Assembly (NCBI GenBank): GCA_030390025.1
Contig: JASTWF010000034.1
Location: 310,001 to 374,000 of the forward strand
Direction: 5' to 3'
DNA length: 64,000 nt
Source of the DNA: Squalus acanthias
Taxonomy: Eukaryota
Shown here piece after piece: positions 1,355-55,227 of this stretch. The first letter of the stretch is position 1; every line of letters begins with the position of its first letter. A model generated the notes under the pieces. That model ran no database searches, was not told the DNA's origin, and saw only the letters and a program-made list of their open reading frames with translations. Position numbers and translations under genes: made by a program.

Positions 1355-1770
1355 CGGAAAGGTAGCATAGTGTTTATGTTGCTGGACTAGTAAACCAGAT
1401 TCATGGACAAATTATCCAGAGTTCAAGTCCCACCAGCTGGGGAATTTAAATTGTATTAATGAAACAAATCGGGAATAAAATGCTAGTGTCAGTAAGTGTG
1501 ACCATGAAAGTACCGGATTGTCGTATAAACCCATCTGGTTCACCGATGGCCATTAGAGAAGGAAATATGCCGTCCTTATCCTGGACTGGCTGAAATGTGA
1601 CTCCAGACCCACTGCAATGTGGTTGATTCTTAACTGGTCTCTGACATGGCCCAGCAAGACACTTGCTTGTCTCAGGCGGCTGACCACCACCTTCTCAAGG
1701 GCAATTAGGGATGGGCAATAAATGCTGGCCTTGCCAGCGACGCCCACATCACAGGAATGATTTTTAAAAA
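1355..1770 (+). mobile_element. tRNA-derived SINE with LINE-derived 3' tail
   Basis: A-box/B-box-like head (GGTAGCATAGTG...GAGTTCAAGTCCC); tail CCACCACCTTCTCAAGGGCAATTAGGGATGGGCAATAAATG shared with LINE 3' ends at 23850-23935 and 42540-42620. Confidence 0.65.
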
Positions 1771-1919
1771 TGATTTATTAAGTGTCATAATGATTTACAA
1801 AGCGTCATAATATTTTATTAATAGTCATAATGATTTGTAAATGTTATAACAGTTCTGTAAAGTGGTGTAATGATTTTAAAGCATTATAAAGGTTTAGAAT
1901 GATTAATAAAGTCCTGATG

Positions 1920-2720
1920 CTGGGCCTCCTCCTCCCCGGGCGGGGCTGCTCGGGCTCCTGTGGGCCGGGCTGCTTACCTCGCCGCCCGCTCTCACGGTAA
2001 CCGGGACTCCAGCTGCGGCCGCCTTCCGGACACTCGATTCCCATCGCCAGGGAAATCCCCCGAGTTACAACCACCATTTTTGTGCGGGGCCACAGAGCCG
2101 CCATCATTGTGCGGAGCGCGGGTTCCGCTATATTTGTGCGTGGCGTCATAGCCGCCAATTTGTGAGAATTCCAAGAACCGACATTTTTGTGTGGGGCCCC
2201 ATTGCCGCCATCTGTGTGCTGGGCTACAGAACCGCCATTTTTCTGCAGCGCCCCAGAGCCGCCATCGTTGTGTGGGGCGCCAGAGTAGCCATCTTTGTGC
2301 GGATCCCAAGAGCCGCCATCTTTGTGTGAGGCCCCAAAGCCGCCATCTTGTTGCGGTGCCCCAGAGCCGCGATCGTTGGGCGGAGCCCAGAGCCGCCTTC
2401 TTTGTGCTGGGCGAGGGTGCTCCCATCTTTGTGCGGGGCGCGGTTGCAGCTACCTTTGTGCTGGCCCAAGGAGCCGCCATCTTTGTGCTGCGCGCAGCTG
2501 TTGCCATATTTGTACTGGGTCCCAAAGCCGCCATATTTCTGCGGTTCCCCTAAGCTGCCATCTTTGTGCGAGGCGCAAGAATCGCCATCTTTGTGCTTGG
2601 TGAGGCTCCCCAGAACGGCCATCTTTGTGCGGGTACCGAAATCGGCCAACTTTGTGCTGGACCCCAGAGCTGCCAATTTGGGCGGGGCGCGGGTGACGCC
2701 ATCTTTGTGCATGGCGCCAC
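1920..2720 (-). promoter_or_regulatory. CpG island with ~24 x 27-bp array of YY1-type motifs; candidate promoter/first exon of a minus-strand transcript
   Basis: GC/CpG-rich; recurring GCCGCCATCTTTGTG core every ~27 bp from ~2070 to ~2710; ETS-like CTTCCGG near 2023; minus-strand donor GAG|GTAAGC at 1978/1977. Confidence 0.65.
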
Positions 2721-2774
2721 AATATCAGGCCCAGTGATCTTTCAAATCTCAGGCTGCAAAGTCTCCCCTTCTTC

Positions 2775-3676
2775 TCATCCTTTAATGAATTTTACAATCA
2801 GAGTAAAGGGTTGTTTGCCCACATCCTTCAACTGCTCTCTGAACTTAGTCTGGGTCACAGCGTAAATCCCAGTGTTTGTGCAGCAACTCAACAGCTGCAG
2901 CATGAATCCCAGTTCCATTACATAATCAGGTAGAAATACAGACTGATACCCCAAATCCCACATCCGCCACCATATAGAATACACCATAAACATTGCCCAT
3001 AATAGGATGAAATTGCCGGAGATAACAAGCAGTAAAATGATGGATTTCCTTCGTTTCTCCATCTCTGGATCTCTGGGAATCTCCCCACTGCTGGGACCCC
3101 GGAGTCTCCTGCGGGCTGTGCTGGACAATAAAATGTATCTGACGGTGACAGCATTGAGCAGCAGAATCACAACAAATGGGACACACGGGGTGAGGATATA
3201 ATGAAGGAACTCGATTATTCCCCAGACCCGTGACAACCGAACATCCTCTGTGACATCACAAAACCAGGGGAGGTTCAGAAGCAAATACTGACCTCTGAAC
3301 ATAAAATACCAGAAGATGTTCTTTAAACCGCTCAGCACAGTCACTGTTCCAAGAACCACAGCCGCCGTTTTCTCGGTGCAATATTTAGTTTTCAGCTTCT
3401 GGCAACAAATGGCCACAAATCGATCAAAGGTGAAAGTGACGGTGAACCAGACAGAACAGTCTGTGGCTGCGAACAGCAGGACGGCGTGGATATTACACAC
3501 GGGGATCGACCGCAAGAAATCAAACTGTTCCCCATAAACAATCGGAATGTGCCTCAATATCAGGTCGAGGATAATGACCAGTAGATCCGCCGCTGCCATG
3601 GCCACCAGGTAGCGAGTGACACATTTGGAGAGACCGCACTTTCCCCGCGACAGGATCCCTGTCGTCACCAAGTTAA
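2775..3676 (-). CDS. GPR139-like class A GPCR, exon 2 (end of TM1 through TM7 and stop)
   Basis: Uninterrupted ORF with hydrophobic helices, MAAADLL (TM2), FTFDRFVAIC (TM3), SCCTNTGIY (TM7); acceptor TTTATTTCCCTTCCACACAG ends at 3677, phase 1. Confidence 0.92.
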
Positions 3677-4987
3677 CTGTGTGGAAGGGAAATAAACAGG
3701 GAAATTATTCATCAGGCTGGGAGCAAAAGCAGCAGTTTGAGGGAATTCGGGGTGAAATCTGCAACTCATTACCGACATTGAATGATATAATCTAATCCTA
3801 TTACCTGTGGAGCTGAATACAGGGCGTATTGCAAGAATAATCGGGAATACATTGTGGAATCAATAAATGAAATGGGAATAAATACAACATGAAAGTAGCA
3901 GATGTTTGATCAAGGAGAGATTAAATGATCGATCTACATTTAGCCCAGCAGACAAAAGCACCGCCCGAGGTACCAGGGACACAAAGGACCAGACCCTCTC
4001 AGGAAGCCTTCGTGTCCCGGGATCAGTCAGCATTTGGAGCGGTGCAGTTCGCTTCTGTGCCCCTGTGTTAGGGAGGGGGAAATCCGGCTTGGATTCCTGC
4101 TCCAAGTCAGAATATCCATTCTATTTAGAACTGAAAATGAATGCAACAGCAAAATACAGAAACTGCAACCTTGGCATGCAATAATTACAGGCAATTGTAT
4201 ATGAAAGTACGGATGTAATATGACAATGCTAAGATAATAAATACAAGTGCACTGCAGTTATAAAGATAACTGGGCTATCAGATATGTTTTGGAGATTGAG
4301 TTTACTGCATTTTTGTTGAAATACACAAATTCTAACTCATTGAAAGGAAGATTTGCAAGGAACATTGCAAATAATGGACTCTGAATTAAAGTAAATAGTG
4401 ATGATTGACCAGGTAATGTCCCACTAAATGCATTTATTAGCATCGGAATCAGACGACTTAGCCCACAGGCAAAGTGCCACCAAATGCTGTTGAAAAGTAT
4501 CTGAACTCAAATGGAAGAGATTTATCCTTGTACTTTTTCACCTGTTGTTTCCAACTTCTGCAGAGAATATTAGACGAGAAGATATCAAAGGATTTTCTTA
4601 TCCTCAGTACTTCAGTTACAATCAGCGGGGATTGTTTATCCTGAAGTACAGCAGGAGGCAATAGAGAATCACTCTGGGTCTCACTTACAGATCCACTGAA
4701 CTGTGACAGACGGGCATGGGATCCAATTGTAAATTCAGTACAATGATCAGAAAGAAATGTATTGAAATATGGCTGAATGAACGTTTTGTGACAATGTAAA
4801 TTATCCTTGTAATCCTACTTTAACCACCAGAAGCAGTGCCAATAATGCAGAACTGGAGAGGGTGGGAAAGGATAAACTGACTGGAACTGAATGATTAGCG
4901 GATATTTCAGACATTTAATGATGTGGATGTGATCTGCCAGGATTTGTTCCTGTGACTCTGTAAGTAACCATACCGAGCATTAGGTGA

Positions 4988-5125: not shown

Positions 5126-5351
5126 GGTGAAAAGTCTCCTAAACCAAGACAACATTCTTCTGACCTGATACTAATGTTCAGTGTCGGTAGCAGACTGAAA
5201 TTCGTTAAATCAAGAGTCACTTCCAATAAATTTACTTGAGTTGAATATAGAACATTTGAATCTTGGTTACACAATATCACGATCAGAATCAATAGCTGAC
5301 AGCAGCGCGGATGGGATGGGGAACGAGAAAGAGAGAAACACAGTTAAACAT

Positions 5352-8215
5352 GCGGGGAAAAAGCCGGTTAGTTTGCGCCTCCCCTTAGCGCTTTCAGGGG
5401 CGCTAACGGTGTGCTCGATACTTAGCGCCCGAGCACGGCTATTTTAGCGCCACTCGCGAAATAGACCAGTCGTTTTGCAGCGGCGCTAAAGAATGCCGCC
5501 ACAGTCTCTTGCGCCCGCAGATCGTGACATCATACGAGAGTGGAACGCCCCGGTAGCACCCCGGACCGGATATTGAGTCACGTCCCCTGCCTTTCCGCCT
5601 GCCGCTAGGAACGACAGGTAGAGGGGAACGTTTTCAAGTCAGGAAGGAGCTGGGGGAGCGCTATTTAAAGGCGGCCGCTTCCTGCCTTTTCTTGTCTGCA
5701 AAATTTTTGGTACACACAGGTTGAGAGGGAGACAGACGTCTGGAGAGATTCGACGCTGACCGAAAGAGTTTTGGGTCCTGAGAACAACTTTGGAAGTTCA
5801 TTTTTATTTCAACTTCCTTCTAACGATATATGGAAGCTTCGATGGGGGCTGCACTAACTCGGGGCTTCTGCATTGTCCAGCTTCACCTTCAGAGACTGTA
5901 GAGGCGCAGAGAGACAGTTGCAAACATTGCCAGAGGGAGGAGGGCCAACAGGCCTCTGCACAGGAGACCTTATCCTCCCAGGGTATTCCGGGAGCAATTC
6001 TCCTCCTATATCCATGTTTCTGAGGAGCAGTGTTTCCAAAGACTGTGCATCAGCAAGGAGGTGGTCACTGTGCTCTGCCACCTCCTGCGACCAGATCTGC
6101 AGCCTCAGTTCAGGACCAGGACGTCACTGTCGGTGGCAGTGAGGGTGAAAGTGGCTCTGAATTTCTAAGTCAGCGGTCCCTTTCAGACTTCTACTGGGGA
6201 CATAGTGAATATCTCCCAGTTCGCTGTTCATTGTTGCATCCAGGAGGTGACAAAGGCTTTGTATAAGAGGAGACGCCAGTACATCTCTCCCCATGACCCG
6301 GGACAAACAGCACAAACGCGCATGTGGCTGTGCGAGAATAGTGGGCTTCCCCATGGTTCAGGGCGCCATTGACAGCACGCATGTGGCATTGTGGGGCAAC
6401 TCATGACAATGCAGAGGTGTTCCGAAACTACAAGGGCAGCCACGCTCTGAATGTCCAGTGGGTGTGTGACCACAGTCAGCTCATCCTTGCCGTCAATGCC
6501 CGCTATCCTGGCAGCAGCTACGATACTTTTATCCTGCGGCAGACCGGTGTCGCAGACCTCTTCCAACCACCGCATCAACCTAATGGATGGCTCCTCGGGG
6601 ACAAGGGTTATCCACTCTGAATCTGGCTGATGACACCGCTCCATAAACCCAACACCCCTGCCGAGCAGCAATACAATGAGAGCCATAGCGCCACCAGGAA
6701 CCTCAGAGCACACGACCGGTGACTTGAAACAACGGTTCCGGTGTCTGGACCACTCAGAGGGAGCCCTGCAGTACTATCCCGAGCAAGTCTCCCTCTTGAT
6801 TGTTGTGTGCTACATGCTTCATAACATTGCAATCATGAGGGCCCAGCTATTGCCACCAGGGATTGGTGCACCACCTGAGGAAGAGGATGAGGAGGAGGAT
6901 GAAGAGGAGGATCAGCAGCACCACGGTGGGAGGGAGATGCACAATGTTGCCATTGCAAGGGCCGACCGTGAATGGCTGATAAGACACCGATTCTAATCCC
7001 TTACTGAGAAGATAGCTTCTGGGATGAAGAAGCACATCACTGAAAGCATCCCGCACACCCTGTTGCCGGCCTAAGCTGCAATGATTCAAATCAGGAAAGA
7101 TTTAAAGTTAGAATTTAAAAAAATATTTATATTACAAAATCTGTGCCATTTGATCAGGACAAACAATTAGAAACAAACCCAACAATTCATGAACGAACAA
7201 AACTCGTTCTCACAACATGGAGCCAAATGGCAAAACAGTCAACAAATATGATAACAACCTCAAACTTTCCCACAAACATTCCCCCGATTTATTTACAGAT
7301 TCTACTTTTGGGACTTCGAGGGTGACCTCCACCCCCTCCGCATATCCCCCCTTCCCACCCTACTGCTCCTCTGTAATGTGGCCCCACTGGCTGCAGCAAG
7401 GCTGGCGGAAGGCTGCTGAATGCTTGATCTAGAGATTGCCTTGAAGGACGCCCTCGATCAGCTCTGGGCCTAGAGAGCCGGGCTGCTGACTGCACCAACT
7501 CTGTATGGGCGGCAGCAGTCTGGGCTGGCTGTGTTGCAGACCATGCCAAGTGCAATGGGGTAGTGGCGTTGGTGGGACAGGAATGCTGTCATCTTGAGAT
7601 GGGACAGCACCTTTCTGTTCGACTGAAATGCTGCCACTCCTCCGGGGCAGAACCTCAGCATCTGGAGCAATCAGCTCGAGCACAGATTGCTGGCCTGCTG
7701 CGGCACCGTGAGATCCCTGAGGGACTGTGGGTGACCCTGCGAGGATGGCAGTACTCATGCTTGCGTGACATCAATCTGAGACGGCATGACAGCAGTCTGA
7801 GACTGGATGGCACCATCCAATGACTGAATTGCAGCACTAAGCCATTGCGTTGCGTCGGCCTGTGCTGCAATGGATCATGCCACCTCACGCATTACACACG
7901 GCTCTGGTTCACCATGGTCTCCCTGCAATTCAACCATCCTCTGCAATGAGGCAAGGATGGGTACAAGGGCTTGCACACAGATGAAAGCTGTGCTAGCGGC
8001 GGACTCCTCCACGCTCCTAGCCATTGTATCCATGCTGTCAAGCACACTTGCCATTGCACCCATCAGCTCAGTGTTCATGCTCAAGGCTTGGGTATTCATG
8101 GCCGCGATATCGAGTTCCTCATCCAAGTGCTGTGCAGCAGACCTCGCGCACCTGCTTACCGTACCCACATGGCATTGCTGCAGCCCGCTGGGTCTAGGAG
8201 ATTCGCCCTCACAGA
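5352..8215. mobile_element. PIF/Harbinger DNA transposon, decayed, truncated on the right by a CR1
   Basis: DDE nuclease remnant on + and convergent second-ORF remnant on - (7400-8215); GC-rich subterminal region 5352-5680. Confidence 0.8.
5842..6996 (+). pseudogene. Harbinger (HARBI1-like) DDE transposase pseudogene
   Basis: GAIDSTHVAL, NYKGSHALNVQWVCD, YPGSSYD, GWLLGDKGYPL, LKQRFRCLD, CYMLHNIA across several frames; stop at 6618-6620 and frameshifts; acidic C-terminal tail. Confidence 0.85.
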
Positions 8216-8984
8216 CCCTAACATTCTGCCAATCACCTTAAATCTGTGTCCTCTGATTAGCGACCTTTCCACCAATGGGAACAGTTTCTCTCTATCTGCT
8301 CTGTCCAGAGCCCTCATGATTTTGAACACCTCTATCACATCTCCTCTCAACCTCCTCTGCTCTAAGGATAACAACCCCAGTTTCTCCAGTCTATCCACGT
8401 AGCTGAAGTCCCTAATCACTGGAATCATTCTTGTAAATCCTTCCTGCACCCGCTCTAATCATTCAAATCCTTCCTAAAGTGCGGTGCCCAGAATTGTACA
8501 TAATACCCCAGTTGAGGCTGAACCAGTGTTTTATACAGGTGCATCATAACTTGCTTGTTTCTGTACTCTATGCCTCTATTTATGAAGCCCAGGATCCTGT
8601 ATGCTTTTTTAACTGTTTTCTCAACCTGCCCTGCAAAATTCAACGATGTGTGCACATATACCCCAGGTCTCTCTGTTCATGCACCCCTTTTAGAATTGTA
8701 CCCTTTACTTTATATTGTCTCTCCTCATTCTTCCTACCAAATTGTATCATTTCATATGTTTCTGCGTTAAATGTCATCTGCCACGTGTCCGCCCATTCCA
8801 CCAGCATGTCTATATCCTCTTCAAGTCCATCACTATCCTCCACACTGTTCACTATACTTCCAAGTTTTGTGTCATCTGCAAATTTCGAAATTGTGCCCTT
8901 TACCCCCAAGTCCAAATCATTAATATATATCAAGAAAAGCAGTGGTCCTAGTACCAACCCCTGGGGAACACCACTGTGTACCTT

Positions 8985-9592
8985 TGTAGGGGAGTGAAAA
9001 GAGTTAATGGGATTGAAAGAGTTAATTTGAACTCACGTTAAATTAAAATAATAATTTCTCGTCTTCTGTATGAAACCTCCCAGGTGGGAGATAAGGCCTG
9101 GTTGAGCGTTGTGATACTTAGCAACACCCAAGGTCATAACACAATGAAAAGACTGTAAAAACCCAGACACAGGGCCTCCAAGCAGACTGCATATATACGT
9201 CATTAATGCTTTAGTTTGTAACTGACAGAGATAAGAGTATAACGAATTAATGGTTTTGTTTGTAACTGACAGAGATAAGAGTATAACGAATTAAAATATA
9301 ACGAATTAATGATTTAGCTTGAACTGATATAAATTGTTTAGAATATAACGAATTAATTGTAAGCTGTTTAAGTTTGAAATTGACATACTTGTAAACATGT
9401 GATATTTTGTAACTATGTGATTGGAGAACTCTTCAATAAAAGGTTGTCATTGACAACGAGAGGTCGAGAAGTTGAAGTCATCAGACCGAGCAAGATTCTG
9501 TGACACTTCTCCCAGGGATCTCTGAATATTAAATAAACTGTTTCTTGCTTTTACCTATAAACAGACTGGAGTGAAATAATTTCTCCCTAACA
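8985..9592 (+). mobile_element. Solo LTR inserted in the CR1
   Basis: TGTAGGGGAG...CTCCCTAACA imperfect inverted termini, AATAAA near 9436 and 9532, CR1 reading resumes on both sides; only CTT matches as target duplication. Confidence 0.7.
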
Positions 9593-20855: not shown

Positions 20856-21099
20856 GCCAAACAGTAATACAGTGAAACGTGGTTGACAGACCCAATTTCT
20901 GGATATAGAGACTTACCAATGACACCAACAGCAGCAAAGAATGAAGAATAGTAATACAGTTAGCAAAGGTTTGCAGGGTTAATAGCTGGATAGATAGACT
21001 TACCAGGAACAACAACTGCAGCAAGGAGGGGAGAGTAAACGACCCGAACAGTAATACAGTAAAACATGGTAAACAGAATTGCTGGATAGGGAGACCTAC

Positions 21100-21280
21100 C
21101 AGGCACAGCAACAGCAGCAAGGAGCGGATAGTAAATGTATTGAATAATCTCAAGCACCAACTGTATCCGCCAGGTTAATGATATATAATCATATAATTCT
21201 GAAAGAAAGTTAATATCCCAGCTGAAACTCCTGCCCATTGTTGTAACATTCCAATCTACTGTTCTCAGATTCTGATCCAT
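21100..21280 (-). CDS. GPR139-like GPCR, exon 1 (N-terminus and start of TM1)
   Basis: MDQNLRTVDWNVTTMGRSFSW...IIQYIYYPLLAAVAVP then donor CCTG|GTAGGT; 181 nt (phase 1) joins exon 2 as VP-VNLVTTGILSRGKCGLS, 360 aa total. Alternative start ATG at 21238. Confidence 0.8.
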
Positions 21281-21559
21281 TGTTGTAACATTCCAATCGA
21301 CTGTTCTCAGATTCCGACTCCCTCTCTGTGGAGCAGCACGCTGATCCCTGTTAGTGCCGGAGGTGATGCTCTCACTGACACTATGGATAACACATTGAAA
21401 GGAGTCCCTTATTAATAGAAGAGGGAAACCCTGCATTGATACAAATAGAGTCCTTGGAGACTGACATTAATTACAGTCACTAAACAAACATCTTCAGTTA
21501 ACCCCTTTCAAGCCAACACTTTTTGTACCACAGTAAAGTAGAACATTTACCCGGTCCGG

Positions 21560-25964: not shown

Positions 25965-26800
25965 CAATTTAAGAATTAACAATTAACTTTACTCCCTTGT
26001 TTATTGGTTATCATACCCAATTTAACAATTAACTGAGAGAGTTTTAACCTGTGTATTGGTTATCATACCAATTTAACAATTAACTGACAGCTTTACACTG
26101 TGTATTGGTTATCATACAAAATTTAACAATTAACTGTGACAGTTTTACCCTGTGTATTGGTTATCATATCCAATTTAACAATTAATTGTGACAGTTTTAC
26201 CCTGTGTATTGGTTATCATATCCAATTTAACAATTAACTGACAGTTTTACCCTGTGTATTGGTTATCATGCCCAATTTAACAATTAACTGTGTCAGTTTT
26301 ACTCTGTGTATTGGTTATCATACCCAATTTAACAATTAACTGTGACAGTTTTACCCTGTGTATTGGTTATCATACCCAATTTAACAATTAACTGACAGTT
26401 TTACCCTGTGTATTGATTATCATACCCAATTTAACAATTAACTGTGACAGTATTACCCTGTGTATTGGTTATCATACACAATTTAACAATTTACTGTGAC
26501 AGTTTCAGCCTGTGTATTGGTTAATTGTTAAATTGGGTATGATAATCAATACACAGGGTAAAACTGTCACAGTTAATTGTTAAATTGGGTATGATAACCA
26601 ATACACAGGGTAAAACTGTCAGTTAACTGTTGAATTGGGTATGATAACCAATACACATGGTAAAACTGTCAGTTAACTGTTAAATTGGGTATGATAACCA
26701 ATACACAGGGTAAAACTGTCACAGTTAATTGTAAAATTGGGTATGATAACTGACAGTTTCACCCTGTGTATTGGTTATCAAACCCAATATAACAATTAAA
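25965..26800. repeat. 50-52 bp AT-rich minisatellite with an internally inverted block
   Basis: TTTAACAATTAACTGTGACAGTTTTACCCTGTGTATTGGTTATCATACCCAA units; 26522-26750 are reverse-complement units. Confidence 0.9.
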
Positions 26801-27639: not shown

Positions 27640-29865
27640 CCACTGTGGATTTGTTATCAGGGAGAGCCAGCCCAGATTTGTTGAAGGCAAATCGTGTTTG
27701 ACTAAACTGATTGAGAGTTTTGATGAGGTAACAGGGTTGATGAGGGCTGTGCAGTTGATGTTCTGTATCCAGACGTTCAAAAGGCGTTTGATAAAGTTAC
27801 ACATATTCTGCTTGTTAGCAAATTAAAGCCCGTGGGATAAAAGGGGCAGAGGCAGCATGGATACAAATTGGATCAGGGACAGAAACACAGAATTGTGTTG
27901 AATGGCTGTCTTCGGGCTGGAGGGAGGTAAATAATGGAGTTCCCCAGGTTTCAGTACTGGGGTCTGGAGGGAGGTCAATAGTGGAGTTCCCCAGGGTTCA
28001 GTACTGGGGTCTGGAGGGAGGTAAACAGTGAAGTTCCCCAGGGTTCAGTACTGGGGCTAGAGGGAGGTATACAGTGGAGTTCCCCAGGGTTCAGTACTGG
28101 GGTCTGGTGGGAGGTAAATAGTGGAGTTCCCCAGGGTTCAGTACTGGGGGCTGGAGGGAGGTAAATAGTGGAGTTCCCCAGGGTTCAGTACTGGGGTCTG
28201 GAGGGAGGTATACAGTGGAGTTCCCCAGGGATCAGTACTGGGGTCTGGAGGGAGGTATACAGTGGAGTTCCCCAGGGTTCAGTACTGGTGTCTGGAGGGA
28301 GGTATACAGTGGAGTTCCCCAGGGTTCAGTACTGGGGTCTGGAAGGAGGTATATAGTGGAGTGCCTCAGCGTTCAGTACTGGCATCTGGAGGGACGTATA
28401 CAGTGGAGTTCCCCAGGTTTCAGTAGCAGGGGCTGGAGGGAGGTATACAGTGGAGTTCCCCAGGTTTCAGTACTGGGGTCTGGAGGGAGGTATACAGTGG
28501 AGTTCCCCAAGGTTCATCACTGGGGTCTGGAGGGAGGTATACAGTGGAGTTCCCCAGGGTTCTGTGCTGGGTTCTGGAGGGAGGTATACAGTGGAGTTCC
28601 CCAGGGTTCAGTACTGGGGTCTGGAGGGAGGTATACAGTGGAGTTCCCCAGGGTTCAGTACTGGGGTCTGGAGGGAGGTATACAGTGGAGTTCCCCAGGG
28701 TTCAGTACTGGGGGCTGGAGCGAGGTATACAGTGGAGTTCCCCAGGGTTCAGTACTGGGGTCTGGAGGGAGGTATACAGTGCAGTTCCCCAGGGTTCAGT
28801 ACTGGGGGCTGGAGGGAGGTATACAGCGGAGTTCTCCAGGTTTCAGTACTGGCTGCTGGAGGGAGGTATGTCGTGGAGTTCCCCAGTGTTCAGTACTGGG
28901 GTCTGGAGGGAGGTATACAGTGGAGTTCCCCAGGGTTCAGTACTGGGGGGAGGGGGGAGACATAAATATTATAGTTATAGTCATACTTTCCATTACTGAT
29001 TGATATTATTTATTATGTATTTCTAATCGCTCTTCAATGGGCATATAATTGGCAAATGTAATTTATACAGATAAATCTGAGGTATTACATTTTGGTAAGA
29101 AATGTAGAGAGGTCACATATTACTTGGAAAATAATAATCTAAATTGGGTCGAGGAGCAAAGGAATCTCAGAGTACAAATACACACATCACTGAAAGTAGC
29201 GACACAGGTTAATAAGGCCATAAAAATTAAACCAATCACTCGGGTTTATATCTGGAAAGGTAGAATTGAAAATTAGTGAATTTATGCTAAACTTGTATCG
29301 AACCTGGTTTAGACCACTCTTGGAGTGCTGCGTGCAATTCTGGTCGCTATATTCTAAAAAGGATATAGAGGCACTGGAGAGGGTGCAGAGAAGATTTACA
29401 AGGATAATACCAGAAAAGCAAAGTATACATATCAGGAAAGGATGAACAGGCTGGGTCTCCTTTCTCTTGAAGGCTGAGGGTTGACCAGATAGAGGTCTTT
29501 AAAATGAGGAAAGGTTTTGATGGAGTGGATACAGAGAGAGTGTTTCCACTTGTGGGGAACAGCAAAATTAGAGGCCATCAATATAAGGTAGTCACCAAGA
29601 AATCAATAAGGGAATTCAGAAGAAACCTCTTTACCCAGAGAGTGGTGAGAATGTGGAACTCGCTACCACAGGGAGTGGTTGAAGCGAATAGTATTGATGC
29701 ATTTAAGGGGCAGTTAGATAAGCATATGTGGGAGAAGGGAATAGAGGGTTACGTTGATAGAATTAGATTAAGTAAGACGGGAGGAGCCTCCAGTGGAGCA
29801 TAAACGCTGGCATGGACTGGTTGGGCCGAATGGCCTGGTTCTGTGCTGTGTACCCCATGTAATCC
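27640..29865 (+). mobile_element. Decayed CR1 RT/3' end hosting a 47-bp tandem expansion
   Basis: DVQKAFDK before the array; FTQRVVRMWNSLP and CR1 3' UTR after it. Confidence 0.8.
27917..28948. repeat. 47-bp minisatellite (~22 copies) derived from CR1 RT coding sequence
   Basis: Unit GGAGGGAGGTATACAGTGGAGTTCCCCAGGGTTCAGTACTGGGGTCT encodes WREVYSGVPQGSVLG. Confidence 0.92.
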
Positions 29866-36900: not shown

Positions 36901-37225
36901 TATAACTCTATTACGTTAGAATCCTGAATAAACATTTACAAAAGGTGTATAACGGGTTATTAAGAATTATAATGATTTATAAAGGGTCATGTCCCTTTAT
37001 CATATTTTGCATCACTTTGTACCCCATTCAAATCCCTTTATAATCCTTTGTCAATCATTATTACACTTTATAAGCCTTTGTCGATCATTACCACCCTTTA
37101 TATTCCTTAACAATTCATCATAACACTTTATATTCTATTATCGACCTTTATATAAATCATTATAATACCTGATATTCATTTATAATAATTTATAACCAGC
37201 ATAATCCTTTATAACCCTTTATAAA

Positions 37226-41857: not shown

Positions 41858-42074
41858 TTACTGGATATTTGTGGTGTGATGGGACACTTGGCTTATTGGT
41901 TTATGTCCACGTCTAGTGAAAATGGGGCAACTTAATGTCACCCCGCTACAAGTAGTGAACAATGGCCCAATCTGAAAATGTGAATGATCTCTTCACCAAT
42001 TGGAAGTTTCAATGGCGGTGTGTTTACCCAGGATCCCCTGCGCGACAAAAAGTGCCCTATCAATGACTGCAGGA

Positions 42075-42515
42075 TTAGACTGCGCAGGCGCGGGACCGGG
42101 GCGTGCTCTGAGCATGTGCAGTACGCATGGTGACGTCAAGAGTAATGACGGACAACAATAAAAGCTTCGGGCCGAGAGAAACAGGTCATTTTCTGTTGTA
42201 CTAATGGCCGAAAAGGCGGGTCGAGAGGCGGGAAGACATTGTGGGGGCTGGGAAGCTTCAAAACCACCGGACGCAGGGCTCAGACCCCGAATAAGACGCC
42301 GCGGGTGCCGTGTTTGCGCCGCGGCGCCAGTCCCGGCCGCCGGGTTGAGCGGGTGACTTCCCGCCCGTTTCAGAGAGGATTTCTCCGCGGCGAGAGCCCC
42401 GGTTACCCCGGCAACCGGCCGCCATCTTGGTGAAGGAAGGCGGGACTTGTCCCCGCGCCGCCATCTTGGACAGGGCGGGATCAGTGCGCATGCGCCGCCC
42501 ACTCCCAGAGCAGGT
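42075..42515 (+). promoter_or_regulatory. CpG-island promoter upstream of the zinc-finger exon
   Basis: NRF1-type TGCGCAGGCGC (~42081) and TGCGCATGCGC (~42485), CRE TGACGTCA (42131), two YY1-type GCCGCCATCTTGG (~42418, ~42457), ETS-like ACTTCC. Confidence 0.7.
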
Positions 42516-42534
42516 GCAGCAGAAGCTGTTTTTT

Positions 42535-43055
42535 ATATTCGTTTCTGCGATGAGGGCGTCGCTGGCAAGGCCAGAATTTATTACCCATCCCTAATTGCCC
42601 TTGAGAAGGTGGTGGTGAGCTGCCTTCTTAAACCGCTGCAGTCCGTGTGGTGAAGGTACTCCCACATTGCTGTTAGATAGGGAGTTCCTGGATTTTGACC
42701 CAGCGATGATGAAGGATTGACGATATACTTCGAAGTCAGGGTGGTGTGTGACTTGGAGGGGAACTTTGAGGTGGTGATGTTCCCATGAGCTTTCTGCCCT
42801 TGTTCTTCTATGTAGAAGAGTTCGCGGGTTTGGGAGGTGCTACCGATCACGACCTGGCGAGTTGCTGCAGTGCATCTTGTAGATGGTACGCACTGCAGCC
42901 ACGGTGCGCCGGTGGTGGAGGGAGTGAATGTTTCATGTGGTGGATGGGATGTCAATCAAGCGGGCTGATTTGTCCTGGATGGCGTCGAGCTTCTTGAGTG
43001 TTGTTGGAGCTGTACTCATCCAGGCAAGTGGAGAGTATTCCATCACACTCCTCGC
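42535..43055 (-). mobile_element. LINE 3' fragment (same family as 22262-23938)
   Basis: RSVMEYSPLAWMS..PTTLKKLDAIQDK and shared 3' tail. Confidence 0.8.
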
Positions 43056-43285
43056 ACACAGGGGCTGCAGAACTGGAGAGCAGAGGGAGGGAGAGAATGG
43101 GAGAGGGCAAAAATATGGTGCAATGGGCAAGGATTTCAGCACAGGGAGAGGGAGAGTGTGTGGGACAGGAATTTACAGCTTTTGGGGGAAACAAGAGAGG
43201 AAAGATTGTTCCATAGAAAGTAGAATTGTCTGTTCTGAATTTATGTCCTGTACTTAGTGATGATTTTTGTAATCTCCTTTTTCAG

Positions 43286-43982
43286 GGTATCAGAAGGGGA
43301 GGATTTGCAGACAAGAAACTCAAAACAAACATCACGCCAAGATCTGAGAGTCACTCGATTCATCAGGACCTGAATATCATCGGCCTTTGAATGTGGAAGG
43401 AGAAATCTTTCTCTGTGCTTTTGTTTGGGAAAGGATTTTACACATCACGCGACTGGGAAAGCACTGAGACCCATTCACACTTGAGCGAGAGTGTTCCAGT
43501 GCACTGACTGTGGAGAGAGCTGTAACCAGTTACACAGCCTGAAAAAACTTCGCACCATTCACAGCGGGGAGAAACCGTACACGTGTTCTGTGTGTGGACG
43601 AGGCTTCAACCGATCGTCCAACCTGGAGAGACAGATGGACCATGGAGAAACCGTGGGAATGTGGGCACTGAGGGAAGGGATTCAATTATCCGTCTCAGAT
43701 GCAAATTCATCGGTGCAGTCATACTGGGGAAAGACTGTTGACCCGCTCTGTATGTGGGAAGGGATTCAGTCGTTCACCCATCCTGCTGAAACACCAGCGA
43801 GTTCACACTGACGAGAGACCGTTCAGTTGCTTTCACTGTGGGAAGAGATTCACTTATCCCACCTCATTGAACACCAGCATGTTCACACTGGAGAGAATCC
43901 GTTCACCTGCTCCATGTGTGCGAGGGGATTCACAAGGTCATCCAGTCTGCGGAAACACCAGCGAATTCACTCAGAAAGCTGA
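43286..43982 (+). pseudogene. C2H2 zinc-finger array exon, disrupted
   Basis: Acceptor CTCCTTTTTTCAG ends 43285; ~6 fingers with HSGEKPY/HTGER/HTDERPF linkers split over frames, in-frame stop near 43668 and lost Cys/His residues. Confidence 0.85.
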
Positions 43983-54895: not shown

Positions 54896-55227
54896 TTATA
54901 AAGGGTTATAAAGGATTATGCTGGGTTATAAATTATTATAAATGAATATAAAGTATTATAATGATATATAAAGGTTGATAATAGAATATAAAGTGTTATG
55001 ATGAATGGTTAAGTAATATAAAAGGTTGTAATGATCGGCAAAGGCTTATAAAGTGTTATAATGATTGACAAAGGATTATAAAGGGATTTGAATGGGGTAC
55101 AAAGTGATGCAAAATATGATAAAGGGACATGACCCTTTATAAATCATTATAATTCTTAATAACACGTTATACACCTTTTGTAAATGATTATTAAGGATTC
55201 TAATGTTATAAAGAGTTATAAGGCTCC

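What the first reader, a model, noticed from the sequence alone, without database searches (positions are those of the whole stretch)
2070..2712. Phased array of ~24 YY1-type motifs with divergent spacers in a CpG island
Seen: a core resembling GCCGCCATCTTTGTG recurs every ~27 bp (e.g. 2258, 2285, 2312, 2339, 2473, 2500, 2527, 2554), all in one orientation, while the ~12-bp spacers differ strongly. Established: GCCGCCATNTT is the YY1 consensus, binding is CpG-methylation sensitive, and unidirectional tandem YY1 clusters are known from mammalian imprinting-control regions such as Peg3. Inference: core conserved relative to spacer suggests a maintained YY1 docking array (promoter, insulator or methylation-sensitive switch) in a non-mammalian lineage, rather than a neutrally decaying minisatellite. 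About half of the cores carry substitutions.
Basis: partly seen in the sequence, partly recalled or inferred. Interest (0 to 1): 0.72.

Follow-up and report, generated by a model that had tools for sequence, protein, structure and literature searches.

The report
Shark repeat beside duplicated receptor genes
A 27-base DNA repeat carrying binding-site look-alikes for the gene regulator YY1 sits just past the end of a shark receptor gene; it is one copy of a common shark repeat that was duplicated along with these receptor genes, and a regulatory role is plausible but not shown.

Summary
The array is real: 24 head-to-tail units of about 27 bp at 2070-2721, in one orientation. The 15-bp core matches the consensus better than the 12-bp spacer (87% vs 71%); five control arrays show no such block. 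But the spacers are homologous, only 7 of 24 units keep CGCCATNTT (15 by a published relaxed rule), and the best-kept bases (TGTG) lie outside the YY1 motif. It is not a single-locus Peg3-like element. Public shark reads show the same 27-mer as a high-copy repeat in three organisms, joined in several contigs to the 3' end of GPR139-like receptor genes and to the GC-rich left flank. Here it lies 53 bp past the stop of an intact 360-aa two-exon receptor, 18 kb from that gene's start, inside a 920-bp CpG island without clear CpG decay, and before a possible first exon. Best reading: a dispersed CpG-island minisatellite carried in a duplicated receptor cassette, probably YY1-bindable and partly constrained. 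Binding, methylation and expression are untested. An earlier scan note reported a 26-bp array upstream of this receptor family; its relation to this one is unknown.

The parts
2070..2721 (+). Tandem array of 24 units of about 27 bp, consensus GCCGCCATCTTTGTG-CGGGGCCCCAGA, mean 20% divergence; 5 units carry a second spacer type (GGGGCGCGG-like)
1841..2760 (.). CpG island (200-bp windows, GC at least 0.55, o/e at least 0.65); the longest of 9 in the window
   Evidence: GC and o/e
1978..2069 (-). GC-rich segment, possible first exon of a leftward transcript (inferred); holds CCGGAAG at 2029-2023, one of only 2 in the window; multi-copy and joined to array units in another sample's contig
   Evidence: table 8 record 9
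1972..1980 (-). Splice-donor-like site GAG|GTAAGC (intron would start at 1977); AGGTRAG occurs 0.29 times per kb per strand in the window
1756..1911 (.). AT-rich 20-bp repeats, similar to blocks at 36928-37189 and 54931-55191; give minus-strand AATAAA at 1819 and 1779, the first such hexamers 3' of the receptor stop
2722..2774 (-). 53-nt stretch between the receptor stop codon and the array
2775..3676 (-). Exon 2 of an intact GPR139-like class A receptor (7tm_1, E 4e-18)
21100..21280 (-). Coding part of exon 1 of the same receptor; phase-1 GT-AG intron of 17.4 kb; spliced ORF 360 aa with no internal stop

Best explanation
The array is an old, diverged copy of a dispersed, high-copy 27-bp GC-rich minisatellite family of sharks. 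It belongs to a cassette that was duplicated with a subset of GPR139-like receptor genes: receptor 3' end, 53 bp, array, GC-rich exon-like segment with a splice donor, AT-rich repeats. SHOWN: the repeat structure, core-over-spacer conservation, the CpG island, high abundance in reads of three organisms, contig links of the array to both neighbours, and the receptor gene structure. INFERRED: the island is largely unmethylated in the germ line; 7 to 15 of the 24 units can then bind YY1; the bound array acts as a promoter-proximal activator or boundary for the leftward transcript that would begin at the array's edge, and may also lie in the receptor's 3' UTR; binding of YY1, or of a factor reading the wider GCCATCTTTGTG 12-mer, has slowed decay of the core.
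For: Core vs spacer; 0 of 5 control arrays show a significant block (p 0.14-0.92). The position that is free in CCATNTT is the least conserved of core positions 4-15 (16 of 24). ECM-rule sites: 15 of 24 against 8.0-10.8 expected under four of five neutral rate sets (p 0.002-0.07) and 4.4 under the fifth. CpG transitions 10 of 96 vs 30 of 359 at other C/G (1.25x), against 4.1x in the largest 67-bp satellite. Abundance: summed contig depth over the array is 27x (X5, organism A), 18x (X6, organism B) and 3x (X9, organism E) that of the adjacent flank; 116 X5 contigs carry the consensus base at 2273; loose-end consensus equals the window consensus. Links: X5 contig of depth 319 spans 1898-2118 and goes on into units; X5 joint of depth 458 joins a unit to 2715 onward; X9 contig 2677-3017 (60 differences) and X12 contig 2652-2809 (14 differences, 26 gap letters) join units to paralogous receptor ends; X6 contig 2599-2810 has 4 differences. 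The ZNF promoter in the window carries two GCCGCCATCTTG sites, one 14 of 15 like the core.
Against: Selection signal weakens to p 0.05-0.09 when base class and the second spacer type are both controlled; removing that type was post hoc. TGTG outside the YY1 motif is as conserved as the motif, and GCC at positions 1-3 is not conserved. Only 7 of 24 keep the full CGCCATNTT; in mouse L1, CpG changes and a GCCTT variant weaken or lose function (PMC11602158, passages). CpG controls vary (1.8-2.2x and not significant in three arrays, 0x in one), so the hypomethylation inference is weak. Array abundance relative to the receptor differs about 20-fold between runs (0.86, 0.37, 0.04), which suggests satellite-like turnover, although summed depth is not copy number. 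Some receptor paralogues lack the array (X12 loose end before 2753). The first exon rests on sequence motifs only, and its partner exon is not in the window.
Confidence: 0.5

Rival explanations
1. Neutral passenger: an ancestral GC-rich sequence that happened to hold a YY1-like word was amplified as a minisatellite, spread with receptor-cluster duplications and is decaying. The core looks conserved because it is AT-richer and because spacer subtypes arose before amplification.
For: High copy number and lineage-variable abundance; A/T positions change less than G/C (0.12 vs 0.23); OR falls to 1.5, p 0.09 without the subtype units; TGTG conserved outside the motif; 17 of 24 units lack the full CGCCATNTT.
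Against: The block contrast is absent from 5 of 5 control arrays and survives base-class stratification with all 27-nt units; no clear CpG decay at 20% divergence; the array-receptor link recurs in three organisms.
Confidence: 0.3
2. The array and its left flank are the terminal or promoter repeat of a mobile element (like mouse L1 monomers or a DNA-transposon subterminal repeat) inserted at the 3' end of an ancestral receptor gene.
For: The left flank is multi-copy; tandem YY1-bearing monomers drive mouse L1 Tf, and YY1 sites occur in many TE subfamilies (PMC11602158, passages).
Against: No long inverted repeat brackets the array in 1500-3500; no TE ORF follows it on either strand; flank depth is about 1-3% of receptor depth in all four runs, far below the unit itself in X5 and X6. 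No TE library was available.
Confidence: 0.12
3. A Peg3-like methylation-sensitive switch giving allele-specific or one-of-many expression in the receptor cluster.
For: Meets the published cluster rule by a wide margin (13 sites per 500 bp vs 3); the receptor family is very large (2,531 relatives at E up to 1e-30).
Against: It lies at the receptor's 3' end, 18 kb from its first exon, not in a first intron as in Peg3 (PMC4196374, passages); it is dispersed, not single-locus; imprinting is not known in sharks (recalled).
Confidence: 0.06
4. The array encodes a 9-residue peptide repeat or a structured RNA.
For: 27 = 9 codons; stop-free stretches up to 201 aa overlap it.
Against: Four units break the frame (26, 26, 26, 34 nt); no Pfam hit under E 0.01 in the 3 frames scanned; none of 120 receptor relatives reads into such repeats; the minus strand folds worse than shuffles (z +1.67); no Rfam hit.
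Confidence: 0.02

Closest known systems
Peg3-DMR and other clustered YY1 sites of mammals (PMC4196374, passages; PMC2665242, passages and section 14)
   Same: Tandem-repeat structure with a YY1 word in the units (GGCGCCATCTT in Peg3, about 10 sites); meets the ECMFinder cluster rule.
   Different: Peg3 is a single imprinted locus with the sites in a first intron and shown binding. This array is one of many copies, lies 3' of a receptor gene, has a strict 27-bp period, and has no binding or methylation data.
Mouse LINE-1 Tf 5' UTR monomers (PMC11602158, abstract and passages)
   Same: Dispersed tandem monomers with one methylation-sensitive YY1 site each (GTCGCCATCTTG), acting together as promoter and enhancer; the best mechanistic model.
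   Different: Monomers are much longer and few (about 3); they head ORF1/ORF2, which are absent here.
DXZ4 and D4Z4 macrosatellites (PMC3465993, passages; PMC3287207, search listing)
   Same: GC-rich tandem repeats bound by YY1, with methylation-dependent states.
   Different: Units of about 3 kb in homogeneous arrays at one or few loci; no sequence relation was tested.
Beta-satellite / KRAB zinc-finger cassettes of human 19p12
   Same: Short satellite arrays co-duplicated with members of a large gene family.
   Different: Here the partner is a GPCR family, and the unit is a CpG-rich YY1-type motif.

Membership tests
Clustered YY1 site / Peg3-type control region | At least 3 cgCCATntt motifs (one mismatch allowed in lower case) in 500 bp | tested here: met
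   13 per 500 bp in the array, at most 2 elsewhere in the window (rule)
Clustered YY1 site / Peg3-type control region | Sites embedded in tandem repeats, in one orientation | tested here: met
   15 of 15 sites on +; TRF period 27
Clustered YY1 site / Peg3-type control region | Within 5 kb of a transcription start | tested here: inconclusive
   Receptor start is 18 kb away; adjacent first exon inferred from motifs only
Clustered YY1 site / Peg3-type control region | Motif kept while surrounding sequence diverges between species | tested here: inconclusive
   Shown among units of one array with caveats; orthologous units not resolved by position
Clustered YY1 site / Peg3-type control region | Locus-specific element at the promoter or first intron of the controlled gene | tested here: not met
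   High-copy repeat in a multi-copy cassette at receptor 3' ends
Clustered YY1 site / Peg3-type control region | YY1 occupancy and allele-specific methylation | not testable with these tools
   No ChIP or methylation data available
LINE-1 monomer promoter | Monomer array followed by ORF1 and ORF2 | tested here: not met
   No such ORF on either side
DNA-transposon subterminal repeat | Terminal inverted repeats bracketing the array | tested here: not met
   17 short inverted pairs in 1500-3500, none a convincing TIR pair
DNA-transposon subterminal repeat | Match to a catalogued TE family | not testable with these tools
   No Dfam/Repbase library and no whole genome
Dispersed minisatellite family | Head-to-tail units of 10-60 bp | tested here: met
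Dispersed minisatellite family | Many arrays with one consensus in the genome and in relatives | tested here: met
   Depth, contig counts, joints and loose-end consensus in X5, X6, X9; number and places of arrays not obtained

The most novel reading that the evidence does not exclude
Sharks have turned a 27-bp YY1-site minisatellite into a standard cis-element of their hugely expanded GPR139-like receptor clusters: a methylation-sensitive, multivalent YY1 platform at receptor 3' ends that insulates or loops neighbouring genes and could set which receptor or adjacent gene is on. This would be a Peg3/L1-monomer-like device multiplied across a gene family in a non-mammal.
Probability: 0.15. Interest if true: 0.72.

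Novelty: new member of a known kind. Interest (0 to 1): 0.4.

Why it matters
YY1-bearing tandem repeats are studied mainly in mammals (Peg3, L1 monomers, DXZ4). A shark repeat family with the same design, present in many copies of graded age beside an unstudied and very large receptor family, would allow a direct statistical test of whether tandem YY1 arrays are selected or merely tolerated. If the core is neutral, it is a warning that motif-over-spacer contrast inside one array can come from base composition and repeat subtypes.

Tried and rejected
No whole genome is held, so arrays could not be counted or placed. Expression: no RNA holder listed. Run X12 is only guessed to be RNA and shows low cover on both sides of the donor. 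From its 'from_end' values I infer one paralogous piece spanning about 1976-2066, ending 2 nt from the donor; this is one contig of one study, so it is not counted as evidence. Of 24 runs listed, 4 were laid, and the output tables were cut. Pattern scans: viral contigs 0, prokaryote genomes 0, metagenomes 0 and then 2. Those 2 are one AT-rich element with three 27-bp units of the same core and an unrelated spacer; the pattern selected for this, so it is treated as unrelated. Phage blastn: no match. Rfam: none. Weak tblastn hits of 28 receptor proteins to 1862-1984 (E 0.1-1) rejected as chance; no DNA match. Structured RNA and coding readings rejected. The bacterial promoter scan is irrelevant here. 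Literature: 10 searches listed nothing on this repeat or on a shark GPR139-like expansion; the library lacks most subscription papers and repeat databases, and PMC2668202 was not held. No supplements were read; repeat libraries in shark genome-paper supplements may already name this unit. Earlier scan notes by sequence or place found no look-alike apart from one unrelated bacterial note.

Full report
OBSERVATION. The window holds 24 head-to-tail units at 2070-2721: 20 of 27 nt, three of 26 and one of 34 (TRF period 27, 65% matches). The 15-mer pattern with up to 3 mismatches has 30 matches in 64 kb, 22 of them in the array and all of those on +, against a shuffle mean of 4.5. The consensus is GCCGCCATCTTTGTG-CGGGGCCCCAGA. 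The array lies in the window's longest CpG island, 1841-2760.

CORE VERSUS SPACER. Core columns match the consensus in 311 of 358 cells and spacer columns in 204 of 287 (p 1e-6). A uniform-rate simulation never reached the observed block contrast in 3,000 trials. Five other arrays in the window show no significant block (p 0.14-0.92). The contrast survives stratification by G/C versus A/T among the twenty 27-nt units (OR 2.4, p 5e-5) and counting changes on two trees of the units (p 0.006 and 0.013). Against this, five units share a second spacer type; dropping them (post hoc; four of the twenty) gives OR 1.5, p 0.09, and G/C-only tree counts give p 0.07-0.09. The conserved block is positions 4-15, GCCATCTTTGTG. 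It includes TGTG, which is outside the YY1 9-mer, and excludes the first GCC (74%). The position that is free in CCATNTT is the most variable inside that block (16 of 24), as a YY1 reading predicts, but it is also a C. Seven units keep CGCCATNTT, the consensus given in PMC1904287 (passages). Fifteen pass the relaxed rule of PMC2665242, against 8-11 expected under four neutral rate sets and 4.4 under a fifth. So some constraint on the core is likely, and its attribution to YY1 is not proven.

METHYLATION PROXY. CpG transitions are 10 of 96 against 30 of 359 at other C/G sites (1.25x, p 0.54). The largest 67-bp satellite shows 4.1x (p 6e-7), three others 1.8-2.2x (not significant), one small array none, and four have no CpG. 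This fits low germ-line methylation, weakly.

SURROUNDINGS. On the minus strand the array starts 53 nt after the stop of a class A receptor (7tm_1). Its 120 best relatives, of 2,531 at E up to 1e-30, are all from Heptranchias, Heterodontus and Pristiophorus, and 119 are named 'probable GPR139' (mostly 73-81% identity); human GPR139 is the best solved relative. So the window is from a shark or close kin (inference). A profile of the relatives' N-termini found exon 1 at 21100-21280; the spliced frame is 360 aa with a GT-AG intron and no internal stop. The array is therefore at the receptor's tail, not at its promoter. Beyond the array on the same strand come a 92-nt GC-rich segment with CCGGAAG (an ETS-type word, label recalled; 2 in the window), a donor-like GAG|GTAAGC at 1978/1977, and AT-rich 20-mers with two AATAAA. 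This reads as the first exon of a gene that leaves the window, or as the receptor's 3' UTR, or both; neither is shown.

IT IS A REPEAT FAMILY IN A CASSETTE. Four of 24 listed public runs were laid on 1800-3800 at 80% likeness. Summed contig depth is not copy number, but the pattern is plain. In X5 (organism A; a different sample and study from the four best holders) it peaks at 472,020 on the units closest to consensus, against 2,461-2,863 on the flank. Mean array-to-flank ratios are 27 (X5), 18 (X6, organism B) and 3 (X9, organism E). Every listed variant inside the array turns a window base into the consensus base, and X5 loose ends spell the same 27-mer. Bridging contigs: X5 record 9 (depth 319, 38 differences) spans 1898-2118 and continues into units; an X5 joint (depth 458) links a unit to 2715 onward; X9 record 25 (2677-3017, 60 differences) and X12 record 2 (2652-2809) join units to other receptor copies; X6 record 17 (2599-2810, 4 differences) looks like the orthologue. 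The lowest-depth long X5 contigs listed are 18-40, so the linking contigs probably stand for roughly 8-25 near-identical copies (inference). One X12 contig has a different sequence after the receptor end, so not all paralogues carry the array. Array depth relative to the receptor is 0.86, 0.37 and 0.04 in X5, X6 and X9, which hints at lineage-specific amplification.

HOW IT MOST LIKELY WORKS (0.5). Shown: structure, abundance, linkage, island. Inferred: a promoter-type YY1 word was amplified into a 27-bp minisatellite (the ZNF promoter at 42418 has a 14-of-15 match to the core); an array became fixed between a receptor's end and a CpG-rich exon-like segment; cluster duplications spread the cassette. 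While unmethylated, several units bind YY1 and act together on the nearby start site, as tandem monomers do in mouse L1 Tf, where YY1 motifs account for monomer synergy and methylation cuts binding at least 8-fold (PMC11602158, abstract and passages). Rivals: neutral decay of a passenger minisatellite (0.3), a mobile-element terminal repeat (0.12), an allele-specific switch (0.06), coding or structured RNA (0.02).

COMPARISON. It may work like the Peg3-DMR array or L1 monomers. It is not a member of either: it is not a single-locus first-intron element and it heads no LINE ORFs. It does meet the tests for a dispersed minisatellite. Ten literature searches listed no description of this unit, within a library that lacks most subscription papers and all repeat databases. 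An earlier scan note on this genome (e1-7939187) describes a 26-bp array upstream of the promoters of the same kind of receptor and supplied the cassette comparison. I confirmed the family's size but found no 26-bp array upstream of this receptor's first exon and could not compare the two units.

VERDICT. Real, correctly spotted and partly reinterpreted: a new member of a known kind, YY1-motif tandem repeats, here as a high-copy shark minisatellite tied to receptor-gene duplications. Interest 0.4; about 0.7 if selection on the core and YY1 binding are shown.

Noticed in passing
window 21100-21280 and 2775-3676 (-): Intact 360-aa GPR139-like receptor with a 17.4-kb intron; the family has 2,531 relatives at E up to 1e-30, the best all in sharks, and no paper on this expansion was listed in two searches.
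   Followed up: partly
window 20920-21100 (-): The end of receptor exon 1 with its donor is followed by two decayed tandem copies inside the intron; a 42-bp duplication at 21235-21314 repeats the N-terminal peptide.
   Followed up: no
window 42061-43980 (+): C2H2 zinc-finger-like gene, apparently frameshifted (read by eye), with its own CpG island holding two GCCGCCATCTTG sites 39 bp apart plus RFX-like and NRF1-like words (labels recalled).
   Followed up: partly
window 5340-8240: Decayed Harbinger-type transposon (DDE_Tnp_4 pieces at 6342-6993) inside the receptor intron; its left part forms a CpG island at 5301-5760.
   Followed up: no
window 1756-1911, 36928-37189, 54931-55191: Related AT-rich 20-bp repeat blocks; the latter two abut 67-bp satellite arrays and look like an inverted duplicate pair.
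   Followed up: partly
window 27917-28948: 47-bp tandem array (22 copies) whose frames read VYSGVPQGSVLG, a CR1-type reverse-transcriptase word also seen at 8640-9032; probably a satellite born from LINE DNA.
   Followed up: no
window 25998-26750: 50-52-bp AT-rich array that switches orientation near 26520, about 4.7 kb upstream of the receptor's first exon.
   Followed up: no
L001 4083-4150 and L002 70-120: AT-rich metagenome DNA with three 27-bp units holding the same 15-bp core and an unrelated spacer, beside a short inverted repeat; selected by the search pattern, probably unrelated.
   Followed up: partly
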